Below, one piece after another: positions 3,611-38,584 of a DNA stretch of 64,000 nucleotides. The stretch's first letter is position 1; every line of letters starts with the position of its first letter. This stretch comes from Candidatus Liberibacter europaeus (GTDB lineage Bacteria > Pseudomonadota > Alphaproteobacteria > Rhizobiales > Rhizobiaceae). The translations under genes and the position numbers were made by a program. Location of the stretch: assembly GCA_003045065.1 (NCBI GenBank), contig PSQJ01000005.1, positions 2,980 through 66,979 of the forward strand, in the 5' to 3' direction. The notes below the pieces were generated by a model. It had not been told where the DNA came from. It ran no database searches and saw only the letters and a program-made list of their open reading frames with translations.

Positions 3611-4396
3611 CTAGATTTCACTAAAACAAATAACACGATTGCGACCAGATTTTTTAGCAACATAGAGAGCTTGGTCAGATTGATGCAAAATTATTGAAAT
3701 TGGCTCTTTGTTAAAACGTTCTGCTACTCCTGCTGAAATTGTAATATTGATAGATTGTTTATAAGAAATATTGATGCATGAATTTTCAATCACTTTGCGT
3801 AAATTATCAGCTAAAATTGCAGCCTCTTTTTCTGAGTATCCTATAGCAGCGGCGGCAAATTCTTCTCCACCTAATCGACCAACAAACATAGGCTTGCTAA
3901 AAATTAACACCAATTGATGGGAAAAAAAAGTTATTACCTTATCTCCTATAGAGTGCCCAAAATTGTCATTAATCTGTTTAAAACAGTCAATATCGAAAAA
4001 AACAATTGATAATTTGCCACTATAAGATCCTATATTGGAGATGAAAGCAGAATGGTTTAGTAGTCCAGAAAGGCAATCAATACGGCTTAATTTGGAAATT
4101 TTGCTATAAGAAATAAATAATTCCTTGAGGATTAATCCAGATATATATCCCACAAATAGTGAGATGATTACAGCAAAAACAATCAATGCTATATCCTCGG
4201 CAAGAATGTATTCAATATCATACAAAGGTATAAAATACACATAAAACAACGTGATATTAGCAATAAAAATTATAATCACGATAAAAGCAGTAAATAAAAC
4301 TGTGAAATATATCATGAAATAGCTCGGAGAAAAGCTATCTACGTTTTTCTCGTGACGTAACCACATTCTAAGAATGTATTTTACATATTTTTTCAC
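3611..4396 (-). CDS. Membrane-anchored diguanylate cyclase (GGDEF domain)
   Basis: 261 aa. N-terminal hydrophobic helices precede DxLSGLLNH, FFDIDCFKQINDNFGH, the active site GGEEF and YVAKKSGRNRV. Confidence 0.85.
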   Translation of the reverse strand: MKKYVKYILRMWLRHEKNVDSFSPSYFMIYFTVLFTAFIVIIIFIANITLFYVYFIPLYDIEYILAEDIALIVFAVIISLFVGYISGLILKELFISYSKISKLSRIDCLSGLLNHSAFISNIGSYSGKLSIVFFDIDCFKQINDNFGHSIGDKVITFFSHQLVLIFSKPMFVGRLGGEEFAAAAIGYSEKEAAILADNLRKVIENSCINISYKQSINITISAGVAERFNKEPISIILHQSDQALYVAKKSGRNRVICFSEI

Positions 4397-14037: not shown

Positions 14038-14397
14038 TAAGCACTATTTTTAGATATTTTCTTAAAAATATTATCAAAATCAAAATTAGCTATAAACCAA
14101 TCGGTGAGCGATGCTTTTTAAGAAAACTAATATGAATAATTTATTATGTTTTTTGTAATGAAAACCATTTTATTTAAAAATATTTTTTGATATACGTGAC
14201 TTGTAATTCCATTTAAACAAACAAAAACCAATCAATAAAAAATAGTGAATATCTATCAGCAACAAGGATTTAATTTTAACGATAATTATCAAACTTTAAA
14301 CTATTTAATAATTTAAATTAATTAAAATAAAAGATTAAAGACTGCTATTTCGCTGTTTAATTATAGCCGACATCTAAAATTGAAAGAAGAAAACAAA

Positions 14398-15789
14398 ATG
14401 ACTGATACCCGCACTGAAAAAGATAGCTTTGGACCCATTGAGGTAGAAAAAAGTCGTTATTGGGGAGCTCAGGCACAAAGATCTTTGGAAAATTTTAGGA
14501 TTGGAGAAGAAAAACAGCCTATTGCCATAATACGAGCTCTTGGCATTATAAAACAAGCAGCAGCACGTGTTAATATGGAGTTAGGAAAACTGGACCCAAA
14601 AATTGGACAGGCAATTATCAAAGCATCAGAAGAAGTTATAAGCGGTAAATTAGATGATCACTTTCCTTTAGTTGTCTGGCAAACAGGTTCTGGAACACAA
14701 TCAAACATGAATGTCAACGAAGTAATATCGAATCGTGCGATAGAGATATTAGGAGGAATCATTGGTTCAAAAGATCCTGTTCATCCTAATGACCATGTAA
14801 ATCTATGCCAGTCATCAAATGATACTTATCCAACAGCAATAAATATCGCCTGTGTAGAAAGAATAACTTATCGTTTGTTACCAACTCTTCGCAATTTGCA
14901 TACAGCCCTTACAAAAAAAGCCGTTGACTTCCAAGATATTATCAAGATAGGAAGAACTCATACTCAAGATGCCACCCCTTTAACTTTAGGACAAGAATTC
15001 TCAGGATATGCTACACAAATAAAACAATCTATTGAACGCATCAAAGTCACTTTGAACGGTCTTTATGAACTTGCACAAGGAGGAACGGCTGTAGGTACTG
15101 GTCTTAATGCTCCTGTTGGTTTTGCAGAAAAAATTGCTCAAAATATAAAAGAAATTACCGGATTACCATTTATCACAGCTCCAAATAAATTTGAATCTCT
15201 AGCCGCTCATGATGCTATCACTTTTTGCCATGGAGCAATAAATACAACTGCTACTTCTCTATTTAAAATAGCTAATGACATTCGTTTCTTAGGCTCTGGG
15301 CCGCGTTCCGGACTAGGAGAACTATCTTTGCCTGAAAATGAACCAGGATCCTCCATCATGCCAGGAAAAGTTAATCCAACCCAGTGTGAGGCAATAACTC
15401 AAGTTTGTGCACATGTTTTTGGAAATCACGCAGCCATAACTTTTGCCAACAGTCAAGGTCATTTTGAGCTCAATGTTTATAAGCCGATGATTGCTTATAA
15501 CATTCTTCAATCAGTACAACTTTTAAGTGATTCTATTGATTCGTTTACTAATAATTGCATAGTTGGCATTAAAGCACGCACAGAAAATATCACAATTTCT
15601 TTAAATCGATCATTAATGCTTGTCACTGCCCTGACATCTAAAATAGGTTATGATAAAGCATCCATGATAGCCAAGAAAGCTCATCTTAACGGAACGACAC
15701 TAAAAGAAGAAGCTGTAGCTAGTGGATTGATCTCTTCTGATGAATATGACATAATTGTTAGACCTGAGAAGATGATCTATCCTCATTAA
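14398..15789 (+). CDS. fumC: Fumarate hydratase class II
   Basis: Motifs [22 protein letters not shown], the signature [15 protein letters not shown] and THTQDATP. The ORF track start at 14380 is TTG, and the ATG at 14398 is preferred. Confidence 0.94.
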
Positions 15790-34432: not shown

Positions 34433-34753
34433 ACCACAATCAACATACTAACATACGTTGAATCTACTTACAAGCCCTAAATGGACAAATAACACTTGTT
34501 AATTCACCTTTTCTAGTTTTGTAGTGTAACTGACAAGTTATATCTGATTCAGTTATTGACATAGTGTTTATGAGCTTAGGAAGTGGTGTTGTTGTTTTTA
34601 AAAAAAAATATAAAAAAATTTTTCTATAAAAAAAAATTATAAAAATTTTCTGGGGGGGAAGCCTCTAATCTCAAAAGAAAGTTCAAGGGGGGTTTTGCCT
34701 TTTTTGGCTATCCCTTTCGTATTTTCGGCCATATATTGGCCATAAAAAAACTA

Positions 34754-34808
34754 TACTTACTTTTACTTGGATTTACTTGTTTTTACTTAAATATACTTAA
34801 TTATACTT
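34754..34808. repeat. Six TACTT motifs phased at exactly 10-bp spacing
   Basis: TACTT begins at 34754, 34764, 34774, 34784, 34794 and 34804. The flanks carry long A-tracts and G7/G6 runs (34652-34658, 34686-34691). Confidence 0.85.
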
Positions 34809-34864
34809 TAACCAAAATAAAACCACAGAACATAGGCTAGATTTAGCTTTGTATTCTTAGTCGC

Positions 34865-35492: not shown

Positions 35493-35978
35493 TTAGCCTT
35501 TTTTCAAGCAATAATCCAACAGAGCTAATGCGTCAGCTTCGTTATCGTCGATTGGATTGAAGCCTAATTTTTTGACCTCTGAGATAACCAATTGTTTATT
35601 GGCGTTTCCTTTGCCTGTGATATGTTTTTTGATTGTTTGAACGGGTATACCGCCATAAGCTATTTTTTGTTTTTCGCACCAAGAAGCAAGAACAGCGAGA
35701 AACCCACCATAAGCGTGTGATGCATCAACGCCTAAATGCCGTCTGACCTCTTCAAACCAAACAACCTTGATACCCTCAAGAGAGTTTAACCAGTTTTGGA
35801 ATTTCAGAAACCGCATACCTCCACCCTCAAACCTGCCATTTTCAAATTTCACAACACCAGAGAATACTTGGCCATCCCTTTTGACAGCAAAGCCCATCTT
35901 TGAACCTAAATCTAAAGCCAATACGCCCATAATACACAAAATCCATTTTAAAGCCCCTACAGTAACGTTTTGTATCAT
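35493..35978 (-). CDS. RuvC-like Holliday junction resolvase (phage type)
   Basis: Motifs LALDLGSKMGFAV (catalytic Asp), WFEEV (Glu) and NEADALALLDY. The likely start is the Met at 35930. Confidence 0.8.
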   Translation of the reverse strand: MIQNVTVGALKWILCIMGVLALDLGSKMGFAVKRDGQVFSGVVKFENGRFEGGGMRFLKFQNWLNSLEGIKVVWFEEVRRHLGVDASHAYGGFLAVLASWCEKQKIAYGGIPVQTIKKHITGKGNANKQLVISEVKKLGFNPIDDNEADALALLDYCLKKG

Positions 35979-36326
35979 ACCATGGTAGATTGTCTTAGTC
36001 TACCCCCAAAACAGCATTTACAAGCTATTTCTGAACCATTTAAAGCACATCAAAACACACATCCAACCTCATAAGGCGGTTCAACACATCAAAAACCTAT
36101 TCTGAGCAGTATACACCAAACCCTTAGTTTCTGAACAGTACACAGCACACAAACGTTTCAACATTGGCCAATCATACCATAGCACCTATACCGATACACC
36201 GAACAACTCAAAAACCAGTTCAAAAACCAAAACCAGCCAAAACCAACAATAATCCGAAAAATCCGAAACGGCATGTGTGTATTTTGTGGGGCGATTTTTG
36301 GGCTTGCCAATGGGTAGGGCTGAAAA

Positions 36327-36359
36327 ATAACCCCAAACTTACATACGTAAGTGGGTTAT
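36327..36359. other. 13-bp stem hairpin with a 3-nt bulge
   Basis: ATAACCC-caa-ACTTAC atac GTAAGT-GGGTTAT. Confidence 0.6.
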
Positions 36360-36477
36360 AGCCCCCAAAACCACATGCCCGGGGGGTTGTGTTGTATATT
36401 TGTATATTGCGTGTAACATACTGATTATACAGTGTTTTTTTCACGATTAACACGCCTAACAAAAGTTGCTTGTAAAA

Positions 36478-36735
36478 AAATTCATTAGTCAAACACTGAC
36501 TAATAAAATTAAGCCGGTTCTGACCCGTTATGAGGATTTTACTGTTTTTTTTTATGTCATAAGTCAGAAAAAATACAATAACTGACTAATAAACTAACTA
36601 ATAAATCATTTTTAAAAGAATATCGGTAAAATTAAGCCGGTTCTGACCCGTTATGAGGGCCTTAAATTCATTAGTCAAACACTGACTAATAAAATTAAGC
36701 CGGTTCTGACCCGTTATGAGGATTTTACTGTTTTT
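36478..36735. repeat. Two identical 72-bp direct repeats (36478-36549, 36664-36735) plus a third 31-bp partial copy (36628-36658)
   Basis: The unit is aaattcattagtcaaacactgactaataaaattaagccggttctgacccgttatgaggattttactgttttt. It contains the hairpin TTAGTCA-aacac-TGACTAA. Confidence 0.95.
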
Positions 36736-37106
36736 GAGGTTTTTTATAGTCTATATAGTATTTAATTCAATTAAAAAACAATAAACAATTCAAATACCAA
36801 ATACCATATTTCAACACGGTACAGACTATACGATAAACTGCCAAAATGGTTGTTTTTTTAGTTGTTCAGACTATCATTTTGTTTGTGTATGTATGCTTGC
36901 AATATCGAAGAAATAGACTAGTCTAGTTTGGGATAAACAATATAACTCCCATGAAACTTATAAATCTCATGTATGGAAGTATAGAATAGTATATTTGGAA
37001 GTATATAATAGATTAGATAAGAAAATATAATGTGATATTAGATTAGTTGCATGGTATAGGGATATTCGCGTTGAATTAAATGTTCATATGCCTTGTTCTA
37101 AGGTTT

Positions 37107-37120
37107 GGCTCTGCGGAGCC
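37107..37120 (-). terminator. Weak terminator-like hairpin after the 199-aa membrane protein gene
   Basis: GGCTC-tgcg-GAGCC lies about 20 nt downstream of the stop, with no clear U-tract. Confidence 0.25.
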
Positions 37121-37138
37121 TATAAGCTTTAAGTTATT

Positions 37139-37738
37139 TTAGTTCTGCTTGTGTTTTTCATTATATCTAATACGAACTTCTTTTGCTTCCTTTTGATTAT
37201 ATGCTCTAATCAAATTGCTTATAATAAAAATATTCTGCAAATAATCTTCAGCATCTTCAAACTCTACATCAGACGCTAAAGGTGGTACTCCGTATGGTTT
37301 TAAAAATAATTCTATAGTGTTTATACTTTCTTTAAAGTTCTCTTTGCTTAGATATTTTTTTATATTGTAAAGGTTCTTATAACTCTTGTTAATATTATCC
37401 ATATCACTGAAACGTATCTCATGTTTATTCTTTATTATATTTTCTTGATTTTTGGATGCTATCAAGATTGTTGATATCATTGAGAATACAAACCAAAAAA
37501 TAACAAAAAATAAAATAGACCTAATGGTTGGATCGCCTTGATACAAACCATGGTATGAGAGAGCTATTAAAGCGGTATGTAACAACCTAATAAAACTAAC
37601 AGGTAAAAAATAACTGATTATTTGCGAAATTGCTTGATTTTTACTATCTTTTAAAAAAAATGACATAAGGGACATATCCTCGCCACTAAAAGCGTTTTTT
37701 AGCAAAGATAATGCGGGCTTGATCCAATCCATGTTCAC
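37139..37738 (-). CDS. Membrane protein downstream of the repressor (candidate exclusion/Abi function)
   Basis: 199 aa with 2-3 TM helices followed by a charged C-terminal domain of about 100 aa. It has the same strand and position relative to the repressor as lambda rex or P22 sieB. Confidence 0.5.
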   Translation of the reverse strand: MNMDWIKPALSLLKNAFSGEDMSLMSFFLKDSKNQAISQIISYFLPVSFIRLLHTALIALSYHGLYQGDPTIRSILFFVIFWFVFSMISTILIASKNQENIIKNKHEIRFSDMDNINKSYKNLYNIKKYLSKENFKESINTIELFLKPYGVPPLASDVEFEDAEDYLQNIFIISNLIRAYNQKEAKEVRIRYNEKHKQN

Positions 37739-37855: not shown

Positions 37856-38584
37856 TTATTCGCTTGACTTTGGCTTGGATTCTGGTGAAACACGTGTTGT
37901 GTTGTGTTGTGTTGTGTTGTGCCTAAGTTCTGCATTATTTAATGCCTCTTTTTCCATTCTCATACGTGTTACAAACAATGCTAATTCGTTAGCATCTAAC
38001 GTTTTGATGTGATGCATGACTTCGTCTTTCAACGTTTTCTTGACCTGTTTTAAAGGTATAGATGGTGGTGTGATATGTCTATTAGTACCACCTTTAGTAG
38101 GTATGCATGTATCACCAAAATAAATCCAGTCCAAAGGTTTGTTTAAGGCATCTTTTATTAACAAGGCCGTTTTAACCTCTGGGACATTCCTACCTTTTTC
38201 ATAGTTGCTCAAAGTTGTTAAGGGTATCCCTATCCAATCGCTAAACGCCTTTAGAGTCATACCCTCTTTTTTTCTAATAGAATTAAGTCTAGCTCCAATA
38301 GTATAAGCCTCTAAAGTTCTTTCTGTGTTCCTGTCTGTATTTGTAACCTTTACATTAATACCACAATACAACCATTCGAAAGGCACACCGAATTCATTAC
38401 GTAGGAACAAAGCGTAGTTAATGCTTGCGGGAGCTGTGCCTGATTCAAACATTGCTATAGACTGCTGTACTTGATTAGATATTTCGCTCATTTGGGCTTG
38501 AGTATAGTTACATTCCAAACGTAACGATTTGAAACGTTGCCCTATTTCCTGCCAATCTAATATATGTTCAGCTTTCTTCTTCAT
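37856..38584 (-). CDS. Prophage repressor with two tandem XRE-type HTH domains, no peptidase domain
   Basis: 242 aa with LRLECNYTQAQMSEISNQVQQSIAMFESG and IRKKEGMTLKAFSDWIGIPLTTLSNYEKG. It is divergent from the early small-gene operon. Confidence 0.75.
   Translation of the reverse strand: MKKKAEHILDWQEIGQRFKSLRLECNYTQAQMSEISNQVQQSIAMFESGTAPASINYALFLRNEFGVPFEWLYCGINVKVTNTDRNTERTLEAYTIGARLNSIRKKEGMTLKAFSDWIGIPLTTLSNYEKGRNVPEVKTALLIKDALNKPLDWIYFGDTCIPTKGGTNRHITPPSIPLKQVKKTLKDEVMHHIKTLDANELALFVTRMRMEKEALNNAELRHNTTQHNTTRVSPESKPKSSE
37894..37921. repeat. Pentanucleotide microsatellite (GTGTT)5 inside the repressor 3' end
   Basis: Five perfect units plus GTG. They encode HNTTQHNTT on the minus strand. 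Confidence 0.95.

What the first reader, a model, noticed from the sequence alone, without database searches (positions are those of the whole stretch)
35990..37140. 1.15-kb structured non-coding region where the replication/late-control module should be
Seen: there is no credible ORF between the RuvC-like gene and the membrane protein gene downstream of the repressor. From 36000 to 36290 the plus strand is strongly C/A-rich and G-poor, with C outnumbering G roughly 3:1 by eye. The hexamer TTCTGA recurs six times on one strand (36029, 36100, 36129, 36518, 36641, 36704), in contexts such as TTCTGAaCAGTAcAC and TTCTGAgCAGTAtAC. There is a 13-bp stem hairpin (36327-36359), G/C runs, a perfect 12-bp palindrome TAGACTAGTCTA (36914-36925) and the direct repeats tggaagtataNaatag (about 36975-37015). 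Inference: the region could be an iteron-type origin, a packaging recognition region, or a long regulatory RNA or antitermination leader for the late operon, which is transcribed leftward from here.
Basis: partly seen in the sequence, partly recalled or inferred. Interest (0 to 1): 0.65.

Follow-up and report, generated by a model that had tools for sequence, protein, structure and literature searches.

The report
Prophage late-operon control region, Liberibacter
The 1.15-kb gene-free stretch is this Liberibacter prophage's version of a known hypervariable spacer between the phage repressor and the packaging/late genes; it most likely holds repressor-binding sites, promoters and a previously undescribed 115-base folded element conserved across Liberibacter prophages, plus a dead gene fragment.

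Summary
The window comes from a Candidatus Liberibacter genome. It carries a prophage remnant with no replication genes and no integrase.

The non-coding stretch sits where Liberibacter phages SC1 and SC2 have their "large intergenic region". Their GenBank records label that region rep_origin, but only as a putative origin.

The stretch is a composite, read here in late-operon direction (minus strand):
- **36930-37027:** a decayed Panacea-type antitoxin gene fragment.
- **36478-36735:** a lineage-specific array of 19-bp palindromes and repeats, interleaved with three copies of a conserved -10-like box.
- **36251-36399:** a module conserved in five Liberibacter prophage lineages, always 112-117 nt long. 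It has invariant inverted arms around a hairpin whose sequence differs in every lineage but whose pairing is kept. It is absent from Rfam and from SC1/SC2.
- **36003-36250:** a G/T-rich leader.
- **35974-36002:** a promoter-like site next to the RuvC-like gene.

Best reading (confidence 0.4): a repressor-controlled late-operon control region with a structured leader RNA. An origin, a packaging site and a DNA-level protein site remain possible. No transcript data covered the module.

The parts
36930..37027 (+). Decayed fragment of a SocA/Panacea-domain antitoxin gene. Two collinear pieces lie in different frames, with about 60 nt lost between them.
   Evidence: tblastn with the Laf 170-aa and L118 166-aa Panacea proteins gives GINNITPMKLINLMY and SHVWKYRIVYLEVYNRLDKKI, combined E 1e-5. 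Strand and position match the intact toxin-antitoxin pair in the Laf, L118 and L241 relatives.
36914..36925 (.). Exact 12-bp palindrome TAGACTAGTCTA. It belongs to a TAGACTA/AGACTAT motif family (36746, 36823, 36868, 36914, 36919, 35996).
   Evidence: TAGACTA occurs 4 times in the region against 0.05 expected. It lies inside the former N-terminal coding part of the decayed antitoxin gene (inference).
36478..36735 (-). Lineage-specific repeat array. It holds two exact 72-nt units (36478-36549, 36664-36735), three 25-nt repeats (36511-36535, 36634-36658, 36697-36721), two 19-bp palindromes TTAGTCA-N5-TGACTAA (36485-36503, 36671-36689) and extra half-sites (36576-36605).
   Evidence: No copy occurs elsewhere in the window. 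Every relative has its own palindrome or iteron at the same place.
36721..36730 (-). -10-like box CAGTAAAATC preceded by an A-run (copy 1 of 3).
36535..36544 (-). -10-like box CAGTAAAATC preceded by an A-run (copy 2 of 3).
36423..36432 (-). -10-like box CTGTATAATC preceded by an A-run (copy 3). This copy sits at the position conserved in most relatives, 43-54 nt upstream of the module's GGCAT.
   Evidence: One such box lies at the same relative position in Laf (L101, L242), Lso (L102, L241) and L118; the scan found none in the solitary Laf remnant L120. Only 3 other hits occur in 64 kb on both strands.
36251..36399 (-). Conserved module: 5' flank ACAACCCCCC, 5' arm 36362-36379, inner hairpin 36327-36359 followed by T5, C-rich linker, 3' arm 36270-36291, and 3' flank GTTTCGGATTTTT.
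   Evidence: Found in 5 lineages (7 sequences) with a constant span of 112-117 nt. In the 7-sequence alignment the inner hairpin has compensatory changes at 5 of 6 pairs (RNAalifold on the first 5 sequences gave the same structure). Covariance model R1 scores 127-145 bits in Liberibacter only. No Rfam match. Stop codons in all frames in most lineages.
36158..36274 (-). Candidate upstream ORF (38 aa, MPFRIFRIIVGF...). Its ATG lies inside the 3' arm of the module.
   Evidence: An MPFRIF / MPFGFF start is found in all lineages, but length varies from 10 to 45 aa and there is no Shine-Dalgarno sequence. This is weak evidence.
36003..36250 (-). G/T-rich (C/A-rich on the + strand) leader between the module and the RuvC-like gene.
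   Evidence: The same strand bias is seen in Laf1 and L120.
35974..36002 (-). Promoter-like site TAGACT-17-TATGAT (TG-extended) next to the RuvC-like gene.
   Evidence: The counterpart in Lso ZC1 is GGGGTAGACTAG...TAGTAT, and the only Lso RNA contig over this gene starts about 7 nt after the transcription start predicted from that site.
35493..35930 (-). RuvC-like resolvase gene, first gene of the late operon (145-aa form). The module always occurs together with this gene.
37856..38584 (-). Double-HTH (XRE-type) repressor, the candidate binder of the palindromes.
   Evidence: It is homologous to SC1/SC2 gp125 and the Laf/Lso repressors, with a conserved scaffold and variable recognition helices.

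Best explanation
The stretch is the control region of the prophage late (packaging and structural) operon, and it is read on the minus strand. Upstream lies a leftover fragment of a lost toxin-antitoxin gene, which has no role. Then comes an array of lineage-specific palindromes and half-sites interleaved with three tandem copies of a conserved -10-type promoter box. I infer that the neighbouring double-HTH repressor binds these sites and keeps late transcription off in the lysogen. Transcripts from the last box run straight into a conserved module of about 115 nt. Two invariant complementary arms close a long stem around a variable hairpin. In this element and in Laf the hairpin is followed by a U-run, so it would act as a terminator. 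I infer that this folded leader insulates or attenuates the late operon. It would stop transcription that arrives from the same-direction repressor operon or from the distal promoters. It would also hide the AUG of a short MPFRIF leader ORF. A second promoter next to the RuvC-like gene then drives the late genes. What is shown: the anatomy, its conservation, the compensatory changes, and the co-variation of iterons with the repressor. What is inferred: who binds, that the module acts as RNA, and what it does.
For: Position: the stretch lies between the double-HTH repressor (plus a membrane protein) and the RuvC-like/TerS/TerL/portal operon, all on one strand. Every Liberibacter relative has 0.9-1.8 kb of non-coding DNA here. 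Operator-like sites: 19-21-bp palindromes occur in W, Lso ZC1, Lso L241 and L118; in W, Lso ZC1 and Lso L241 the palindrome lies 105-135 nt upstream of the module. Between the two Lso lineages both arms changed in concert (ATTGGATCA/TGATCCAAT to TATCGGTCA/TGACCGAAT) inside a framework that is 79% identical. SC1 versus SC2: early genes including the primase C-terminus are 98.5% identical and TerS/TerL are 98% identical. The repressor gene is only 79% identical and the iteron segment cannot be aligned. The two repressor proteins are identical at their ends and differ in both recognition helices. This element has lost all replication genes, yet it keeps an intact repressor, perfect repeats and an intact late operon. 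The conserved -10-like box sits at a fixed distance from the module in Laf (L101, L242), Lso (L102, L241) and L118, and is present three times here. The module has a constant length of 112-117 nt, invariant arms and 5 of 6 hairpin pairs with double changes; 0 of 500 shuffles reach its covariation score. The hairpin is more stable on the late-operon strand in 6 of 7 sequences, with 10 G-U pairs against 2 on the other strand. The hairpin is followed by a T-run in W and Laf.
Against: No transcript evidence exists. Lso RNA-seq contigs do not cover the module, and the one contig over the RuvC-like gene starts at the proximal promoter, downstream of the module. The palindrome or iteron motif is absent from the repressor/early divergent promoter region in every lineage, where a classical repressor should also bind. 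The U-run after the inner hairpin is present in only 2 of 5 lineages. Both strands of the whole module fold about equally well, and the arms never vary, so arm pairing is not proven and a protein-bound DNA inverted repeat fits as well. SC1 and SC2 iterons share a GTAAC core and form symmetric inverted arrays around an AT-rich palindrome, which looks like an origin. No -35 element could be assigned. Only 5 independent lineages are available.
Confidence: 0.4

Rival explanations
1. Replication origin. The repeat array would be the set of iterons bound by the phage initiator (the P4-type primase/helicase of complete relatives). The AT-rich flank would be the unwinding element, and the inverted arms of the module would be auxiliary sites (for example DnaA-box-like). 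In this remnant it would be an orphan origin.
For: The depositors annotated the equivalent region of SC1 and SC2 as rep_origin, and later work treats it as the putative phage origin (PMC5981314). The SC1/SC2 iterons form symmetric inverted arrays with 10-11-bp spacing around an AT-rich palindrome and share a GTAAC core. That arrangement suits head-to-head loading of an SF3-type helicase. Iteron copy number varies between Lso strains. The 3' arm resembles a DnaA box at 7 of 9 positions (my reading).
Against: This element has no initiator, primase, helicase or polymerase gene, yet the repeats are perfect. In SC1 versus SC2 the iterons differ while the primase C-terminal 428 aa are about 98.5% identical at the nucleotide level. 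The W array is not symmetric around an AT-rich centre. There is no similarity to any plasmid or phage record. I found no experimental basis for the origin label in the accessible literature; the original description could not be retrieved.
Confidence: 0.2
2. The conserved module works as DNA, not RNA. The two invariant 20-bp arms, about 100 bp (roughly ten helical turns) apart, would be binding sites for one protein, such as a late activator, a host factor or the RuvC-like resolvase acting on an extruded cruciform. The central palindrome would provide a bend or cruciform.
For: The arms are conserved in sequence rather than merely complementary (12 of 18 pairs never vary). The span is fixed at 112-117 nt. 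Both strands fold equally well. The module co-occurs strictly with the RuvC-like gene, including in a solitary Laf remnant that holds only the spacer and a RuvC fragment, and it is absent from SC1/SC2, which lack that gene. The one Lso RNA contig starts downstream of the module.
Against: The inner hairpin keeps its pairing through complete sequence turnover, and it tolerates G-U pairs, which would be A-C mismatches on the other strand and in a cruciform. A conserved -10-like box points into the module.
Confidence: 0.15
3. Packaging recognition site (pac or cos) for the Sf6-type small terminase encoded just downstream.
For: The region lies upstream of terS, as lambda cosB does. It has inverted sites with an intervening bend-like element and G/C runs in an AT-rich genome.
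Against: SC1 and SC2 have homologous TerS/TerL genes but no module. The TerS-TerL spacer, not this region, is conserved across all lineages at 67-77%, and it is what the depositors called the cos site. The repeat arrays differ between SC1 and SC2 although their TerS region is 98% identical. No contig breaks or loose ends occur at the module in four Lso DNA runs.
Confidence: 0.07
4. Mostly decayed, function-less DNA left by gene loss in a degenerating prophage.
For: The element has lost its integrase, its replication module and a toxin-antitoxin pair, and 36930-37027 is a recognisable pseudogene fragment. Most of the region cannot be aligned with relatives.
Against: The module is conserved at about 90% in its arms, while the flanking protein genes are 75-84% identical. 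The overall architecture (array, box, module, leader, proximal promoter) recurs in every lineage. There are exact 72-nt duplicates.
Confidence: 0.1

Closest known systems
Large intergenic region of Liberibacter phages SC1/SC2 (FP1/FP2): 'rep_origin' in GenBank HQ377372/HQ377373; 'IGR' of Zhou et al. 2013 (PMC3862640)
   Same: Same position, between the double-HTH XRE repressor and the terminase/late operon. Same size class (1.06-1.35 kb). Non-coding, hypervariable, and full of short direct and inverted repeats that are specific to each phage type. The flanking repressor, TerS, TerL and portal are homologous.
   Different: No detectable sequence similarity. SC1 and SC2 have symmetric inverted iteron arrays around an AT-rich palindrome, and W does not. 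SC1 and SC2 lack the RuvC-like gene and the conserved 115-nt module. W carries an antitoxin pseudogene fragment in its distal part.
P1/P7 c4 and P4 CI same-strand antisense RNA immunity systems (Rfam C4 family, RF01695; comparison from my own knowledge of these systems)
   Same: A short regulator sequence and its complementary target are encoded on the same strand a few tens of nucleotides apart, upstream of the controlled operon. The target overlaps the start of a small leader ORF (compare P1 icd). In W the 5' arm is complementary to the 3' arm, which contains the AUG of the MPFRIF ORF.
   Different: No match to RF01695 or any other Rfam model even at a lax threshold. The complementary stretches are about 20 nt long and invariant between lineages, whereas c4/CI specificity boxes are short and vary between heteroimmune phages. 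Processing and trans action are untested.
Lambdoid late control (PR' promoter, 6S RNA, tR' terminator, read through by Q; from my own knowledge)
   Same: A promoter-like box followed within about 100 nt by a hairpin and U-run, upstream of the late operon (W and Laf).
   Different: No Q-like gene was recognised in the element. The U-run is missing in 3 of 5 lineages. A long enclosing stem and a further promoter lie downstream.
Iteron-type plasmid and phage origins (lambda ori, P4 ori/crr, P1 oriR; from my own knowledge)
   Same: Clustered short repeats, AT-rich flank, copy-number variation of repeat units.
   Different: No initiator gene lies in cis or anywhere in the element. The repeats behave like palindromic operators interleaved with promoter boxes. 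No replication evidence exists.

Membership tests
Liberibacter SC1/SC2-type prophage large intergenic region | Lies between the XRE-type repressor gene and the terminase/late operon, on the same strand | tested here: met
   The repressors are homologous and TerL is 58-63% identical.
Liberibacter SC1/SC2-type prophage large intergenic region | About 1 kb or more without genes, rich in phage-type-specific direct and inverted repeats | tested here: met
   described in PMC3862640.
Liberibacter SC1/SC2-type prophage large intergenic region | Nucleotide similarity to the SC1/SC2 region, or symmetric iteron arrays around an AT-rich palindrome | tested here: not met
   No blastn hit. The W array is not symmetric.
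Iteron-type replication origin | Cognate initiator gene present in the same element | tested here: not met
   No replication protein was found between the host fumarase gene (14380-15789) and the host RlmN gene (42872-44065).
Iteron-type replication origin | Array of phased direct repeats next to an AT-rich unwinding region and DnaA boxes | tested here: inconclusive
   Repeats are present, but as palindromes plus half-sites with spacings of 86, 12 and 88 bp. An AT-rich flank is present (GC 0.28-0.30). DnaA-box similarity is only 7 of 9 positions (my reading).
Iteron-type replication origin | Supports replication | not testable with these tools
   Needs a replication assay. The public runs were available only as assembled contigs, or had no reads on the region.
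Intrinsic terminator / promoter-proximal attenuator | Stable G+C-containing hairpin immediately followed by a U-run on the transcribed strand | tested here: inconclusive
   Met in W (-12.5 to -21.7 kcal/mol, T5) and in Laf (T7). Not met in Lso, L118 and L120.
Rfam C4 antisense RNA family (P1 c4 / P4 CI) | Match to the covariance model | tested here: not met
   No hit in the window at gathering threshold. No hit over the module at E up to 5 in W, or at E up to 3 in the other lineages searched.
Rfam C4 antisense RNA family (P1 c4 / P4 CI) | Same-strand regulator and target complementarity, with the target at the start of a downstream ORF | tested here: inconclusive
   The arms are complementary, and the 3' arm contains the AUG of a short ORF that is conserved only in its first 6-7 codons.
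Phage cos/pac site | Conserved together with the terminase that recognises it | tested here: not met
   The module is absent from SC1/SC2 despite homologous TerS/TerL. The TerS-TerL spacer is the conserved region instead.
Phage cos/pac site | Virion DNA ends map to it | not testable with these tools
   No raw DNA reads were available for any host of this phage type.
Repressor operator array | Palindromic sites of HTH-dimer size that co-vary with the recognition helices of the adjacent repressor | tested here: met
   This is co-variation only; binding was not tested.
Repressor operator array | Same motif also present at the repressor/early divergent promoters | tested here: not met

The most novel reading that the evidence does not exclude
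The 112-117-nt module is a new cis-acting RNA class of Liberibacter prophages. It would be a leader whose invariant 5' arm pairs with a 3' arm carrying the AUG of a short MPFRIF leader ORF, enclosing a free-sequence hairpin. It would gate entry into the late (lytic) operon by attenuation or by a c4/CI-like same-strand antisense mechanism, without any N- or Q-type protein.
Probability: 0.25. Interest if true: 0.6.

Novelty: new variant of a known kind. Interest (0 to 1): 0.4.

Why it matters
Liberibacter species cannot be grown in culture, with the exception of L. crescens. Their prophages' switch to lytic growth is one of the few known levers on their biology (PMC5463029). The spacer between the repressor and the late genes has been known since 2011-2013 only as a hypervariable "putative origin". 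Three results here give concrete, short targets for reporter and gel-shift tests in L. crescens. First, its repeats track the repressor rather than the replication proteins. Second, a whole group of prophages (Lso, Laf, the "Type 5" phage shared by CLas and CLaf, and this genome) share one small conserved folded element and promoter box in front of the late operon. Third, part of the region is just a dead antitoxin gene. If the module is an RNA switch, it would be a new phage regulatory motif. If the array is after all an origin, it would be an orphan origin retained without an initiator. Either way the finding is of interest mainly to specialists.

Tried and rejected
- **Rfam:** searches at gathering and lax thresholds, on the window and on five related loci, gave nothing over the region. 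No tRNA was found.
- **Phage and plasmid collections:** blastn of the region found no match.
- **Genome-contig scan** with the RuvC-like protein returned no Liberibacter loci, only distant alphaproteobacterial ones, and none of those carries the module.
- **Metagenome-contig scan:** I used a two-arm pattern that was too loose.
- **Viral contigs pattern scans** re-found only Laf and Lso.
- **Transcript evidence:**
  - No public run holds the window sequence.
  - Seven Lso RNA runs exist only as sparse contigs that miss the module.
  - Three 2026 poly-A runs had no reads on the region.
- **DNA contigs** of four Lso runs show no breakpoints at the module.
- **Coding potential of the module:** rejected, because most lineages have stop codons in all frames and the ORFs match no PHROG family.
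- **IHF site (WATCAANNNNTTR) upstream of the module:** rejected in favour of a -10-like box. The two extra W copies keep GTAAAATC but not the TTR part.
- **Sigma-54 promoter, T7-type promoter, MITE, attP/dif and protelomerase site for the arms:** considered and dropped. Reasons were wrong spacing, a single copy in the window, or absence of the required enzyme gene.
- **Toxin-antitoxin operators as an explanation of the palindromes:** rejected. They lie 0.3-1.2 kb from the antitoxin start in relatives, and they also occur in lineages without the pair.
- **Shared operator motif between the spacer and the repressor/early promoter region:** none found beyond one 9-mer.
Full report
**Observation.**
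- There is no ORF above 90 aa in 35979-37138. None of the short ORFs matches a phage protein family, and 36586-37138 has no ORF of 30 aa or more.
- Positions 36000-36290 contain A116 C83 G34 T58, so C:G is 2.4:1, with GC skew down to -0.5.
- TTCTGA occurs six times on the + strand, against about 0.7 expected. The hexamer is not the repeat unit, though.
  - Three copies sit in an exact 25-nt repeat (36511, 36634, 36697; none expected by chance).
  - The other three sit in a different 15-22-nt repeat.
- The hairpin at 36327-36359, the palindrome at 36914-36925 and the 22-nt direct repeats at 36969-37012 are real.
  - an exact 72-nt duplication (36478-36549 = 36664-36735);
  - two 19-bp palindromes TTAGTCAaacacTGACTAA;
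  - an inverted repeat of about 20 nt flanking the hairpin;
  - a pseudogene fragment.

**Context.** The RuvC-like protein next to the region is 75-84% identical to prophage proteins of Candidatus Liberibacter africanus, solanacearum and asiaticus. The window equals contig QEYS01000017.1 of NCBI assembly GCA_019843875.1.

The prophage-like element lies between a host fumarase gene (14380-15789) and host rlmN (42872-44065).
- **Present:** an intact leftward late operon (RuvC-like, Sf6-type TerS, TerL, T7-type portal, capsid and large virion proteins), the non-coding stretch, a 199-aa membrane protein, a double-HTH repressor, a few small rightward genes and a Bro-N antirepressor.
- **Absent:** any integrase or replication gene.

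It is therefore a remnant. In complete relatives the replication genes lie in the early operon beyond the repressor, not at this position.

**What is known about this position.** In the GenBank records of Liberibacter phages SC1 and SC2, the stretch between the homologous repressor (gp125) and TerS (gp120) is annotated rep_origin (1063 and 1304 bp). The TerS-TerL spacer is annotated "Cos site".

Zhou et al. 2013 (PMC3862640) describe the same 1.1-1.35-kb "IGR" as hypervariable and full of direct and inverted repeats, with an AT-rich palindrome. They do not establish a function. Later work calls it the "putative phage replication origin" (PMC5981314). I could not retrieve the original description.

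The finding is therefore the counterpart of a known but functionally uncharacterised region. At the sequence level it has nothing in common with SC1/SC2.

**Comparative anatomy.** I collected the same region from the following sources:
- Laf (L100, L101, L242);
- the Laf-like "Type 5" prophage of a CLas strain (L064; PMC12628843);
- two Lso lineages (L102-104, L241);
- an unnamed Liberibacter-like contig from a sequencing run (L118);
- a solitary Laf remnant that keeps only the spacer and a RuvC fragment (L120).

All have 0.75-1.8 kb of non-coding DNA upstream of the RuvC-like gene, and almost none of it aligns. The exception is one module (window 36251-36399, minus strand), which has these properties:
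- **Constant span.** Its invariant arms are GGCAT(N)GTGGTTTTGGGGG and CCCCACAAAATTACCACATGCC. The span from arm to arm is 112-117 nt in every lineage.
- **Covarying hairpin.** Between the arms lies a hairpin whose sequence differs in every lineage but whose pairing is kept. In the 7-sequence alignment fitted to the model, 5 of its 6 pairs show changes on both sides, and 0 of 500 shuffles reach the covariation score.
- **Restricted distribution.** A covariance model scores 127-145 bits in all Liberibacter copies. It finds nothing convincing in 94 non-Liberibacter RuvC loci or in SC1/SC2.
- **Not a known RNA and not coding.** Rfam has no match. Most lineages have stop codons in all frames.
- **Strand signal.** The whole module folds about equally well on both strands. 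The hairpin alone is more stable on the late-operon strand in 6 of 7 sequences, with 10 G-U pairs against 2. One example is a G-C to G-U change between the two Lso lineages. This modestly favours an RNA read in the late-operon direction.
- **Terminator only in some lineages.** A T-run follows the hairpin only in W and Laf.

**Repeats upstream of the module.** Each lineage has its own short repeat at the same place:

| Lineage | Repeat |
|---|---|
| W | TTAGTCA-N5-TGACTAA, twice, plus half-sites |
| Lso ZC1 | ATTGGATCA-tgg-TGATCCAAT, plus three 12-bp direct units |
| Lso L241 | TATCGGTCA-ggg-TGACCGAAT |
| L118 | TAACGTTCA-gggg-TGAACGTTA |
| Laf | TTGTCTATCAAA, about eight copies with a 12-bp period |
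| L120 | TTATTCTGTTTT, three copies |
| SC2 | GGTAACCAC |
| SC1 | CGTAACGA |

Three observations bear on what binds these repeats:
- **Concerted change in Lso.** Between the two Lso lineages both palindrome arms changed in concert within a framework that is 79% identical.
- **Co-variation in SC1 versus SC2.**
  - The early genes, including the primase C-terminus, are 98.5% identical, and TerS/TerL are 98% identical.
  - The repressor gene is only 79% identical, and the iteron segment cannot be aligned.
  - The two gp125 proteins are identical at both ends and differ in both HTH recognition helices.
  - The same pattern holds across all seven homologous double-HTH repressors.
  - The repeats therefore co-vary with the repressor, not with the primase or TerS. 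This is the main argument for operators rather than origin iterons.
- **Against a classical repressor.** The motifs occur only in this spacer and never at the repressor/early divergent promoters. In addition, SC1 and SC2 iterons share a GTAAC core in an origin-like symmetric layout.

**Promoters.** A box made of an A-run followed by (C/T)(A/T)GTA(A/T)AATC lies 43-54 nt upstream of the module in Laf (L101, L242), Lso (L102, L241) and L118; the scan found none in L120. W has three copies (36730, 36544, 36432), two of them inside the 72-nt repeats. Only three other matches occur in the whole window on both strands. I read this as a -10 element without a recognisable -35.

A second promoter-like site, TAGACT-17-TATGAT, lies next to the RuvC-like gene and is conserved in Lso. 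The only Lso RNA contig over that gene begins about 7 nt after the start predicted from this site. No RNA contig covers the module, but coverage is too thin to count as absence.

**Distal part.** Panacea-domain antitoxin proteins from Laf and L118 match the + strand at 36930-36974 and 36965-37027. The two pieces are in different frames with an internal loss, and the combined E-value is 1e-5. Position and orientation are exactly those of the intact toxin-antitoxin pair in Laf, L118 and L241.

The distal roughly 200-400 bp is therefore a dead gene.

**Leader.** The C/A-rich block is G/T-rich on the late-operon strand, and Laf1 and L120 show the same bias. An ORF starts at the ATG inside the 3' arm. 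It begins MPFRIF or MPFGFF in all lineages, with a few synonymous differences. It runs only 10-45 aa and has no Shine-Dalgarno sequence. I treat it as a lead, not a finding.

**Mechanism.** My best reading, at confidence 0.4, is that this is a late-operon control region.
- The repressor binds the palindromes that are interleaved with tandem promoters.
- The structured leader then insulates or attenuates the late genes, which lie downstream of the repressor operon on the same strand.
- A proximal promoter drives the late genes.

The rivals are:
- an orphan replication origin (0.2);
- a DNA-level protein site formed by the arms (0.15);
- a pac/cos site (0.07), disfavoured because the TerS-TerL spacer is the conserved region across all lineages;
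- junk (0.1), which is true only for the distal part.

**Comparison and novelty.** As a whole, the region is a new variant of the known Liberibacter prophage spacer. I found no description of the 115-nt module or the conserved box in the papers I could search. The module resembles P1 c4 / P4 CI in its same-strand complementary layout, and lambda PR'-tR' in having a promoter-proximal hairpin. It fails the membership test for the C4 family (no model match), and no Q-like gene was recognised.

Noticed in passing
window 34433-34864 (TerS stop to the TerL ORF start; NCBI's TerL call starts further downstream): A second non-coding spacer of 430-550 bp, very AT-rich (GC 0.27-0.29), lies between terS and terL. 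Unlike the region studied, it is 67-77% conserved across all Liberibacter prophage lineages, including SC1 and SC2, where the depositors call it the 'Cos site'. It is a better candidate for the packaging signal.
   Followed up: partly
window about 16000-42500: The prophage-like element has an intact late operon of about 18 kb but no integrase, primase, helicase or polymerase. It is bounded by a host fumarase gene (14380-15789) and host rlmN (42872-44065). It is therefore a structural-genes-plus-repressor remnant. Whether it still makes particles is unknown.
   Followed up: partly
window 35930-35978: The 161-aa reading of the RuvC-like gene starts inside the predicted -10 element of its own promoter, so the 145-aa start (ATG at 35930, as NCBI calls it) is more likely. 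The sequence GGCTTTAAAATGGATTTT just upstream is conserved at the nucleotide level in W, Laf, Lso and L118. In Lso it is closed by an in-frame stop, so it is probably a conserved 5'-UTR element.
   Followed up: partly
window 36158-36274 (minus strand); L101 4789, L102 4788, L241 3782, L118 2521, L120 3830: A short ORF starts at the ATG inside the module's 3' arm. It begins MPFRIF(R) or MPFGFF in all lineages, with CGG/AGG and CGG/CGA/CGC synonymous differences. It is Phe-rich, 10-45 aa long, and has no Shine-Dalgarno sequence. It could be a leader peptide or a by-product of T-rich sequence.
   Followed up: partly
L120 3250-4375 (Laf CP004021.1 about 1,085,600-1,086,700): A solitary remnant consists only of the spacer (own iterons TTATTCTGTTTT x3, the conserved module) and a 124-aa RuvC-like fragment, embedded among host genes. 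A tRNA gene lies about 2.4 kb upstream (L120 790-874).
   Followed up: partly
L102 4064-4297 (Lso ZC1): The Lso spacer contains a truncated duplicate of the N-terminus of the RuvC-like gene (77-aa ORF). L119 carries a similarly truncated copy preceded by AAAATCAGTT iterons and no module.
   Followed up: no
L102 3640-3689 (Lso ZC1): RNA-seq contigs from five Lso runs all end at 3666-3686, at a pair of 19-nt repeats TCACCATATACAAGGGTGA downstream of the second HTH gene. This may be a transcript end or a processing site.
   Followed up: no
L102 4464-4499: Two of four Lso DNA runs lack one 12-bp iteron unit (CATTGGATCATT, 3 copies reduced to 2), showing copy-number variation of the iterons between strains.
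   Followed up: no
window 37856-38584; L116 4108-4707; L117 4336-4953; L101 739-1359; L102 867-1622 and 2639-3271; L241 1130-1876: All Liberibacter prophage repressors at this position are homologous proteins with two HTH domains. They have near-invariant scaffolds (for example PASINYALFLRNEFGASFDWLYDG and KPLDWIYFGD) and highly variable recognition-helix segments. Lso ZC1 carries two paralogues.
   Followed up: partly
L064 (CP196669.1, labelled Ca. L. asiaticus): This prophage region is 98-99% identical to the Laf prophage. This agrees with the published 'Type 5' prophage shared between CLas and CLaf (PMC12628843).
   Followed up: partly
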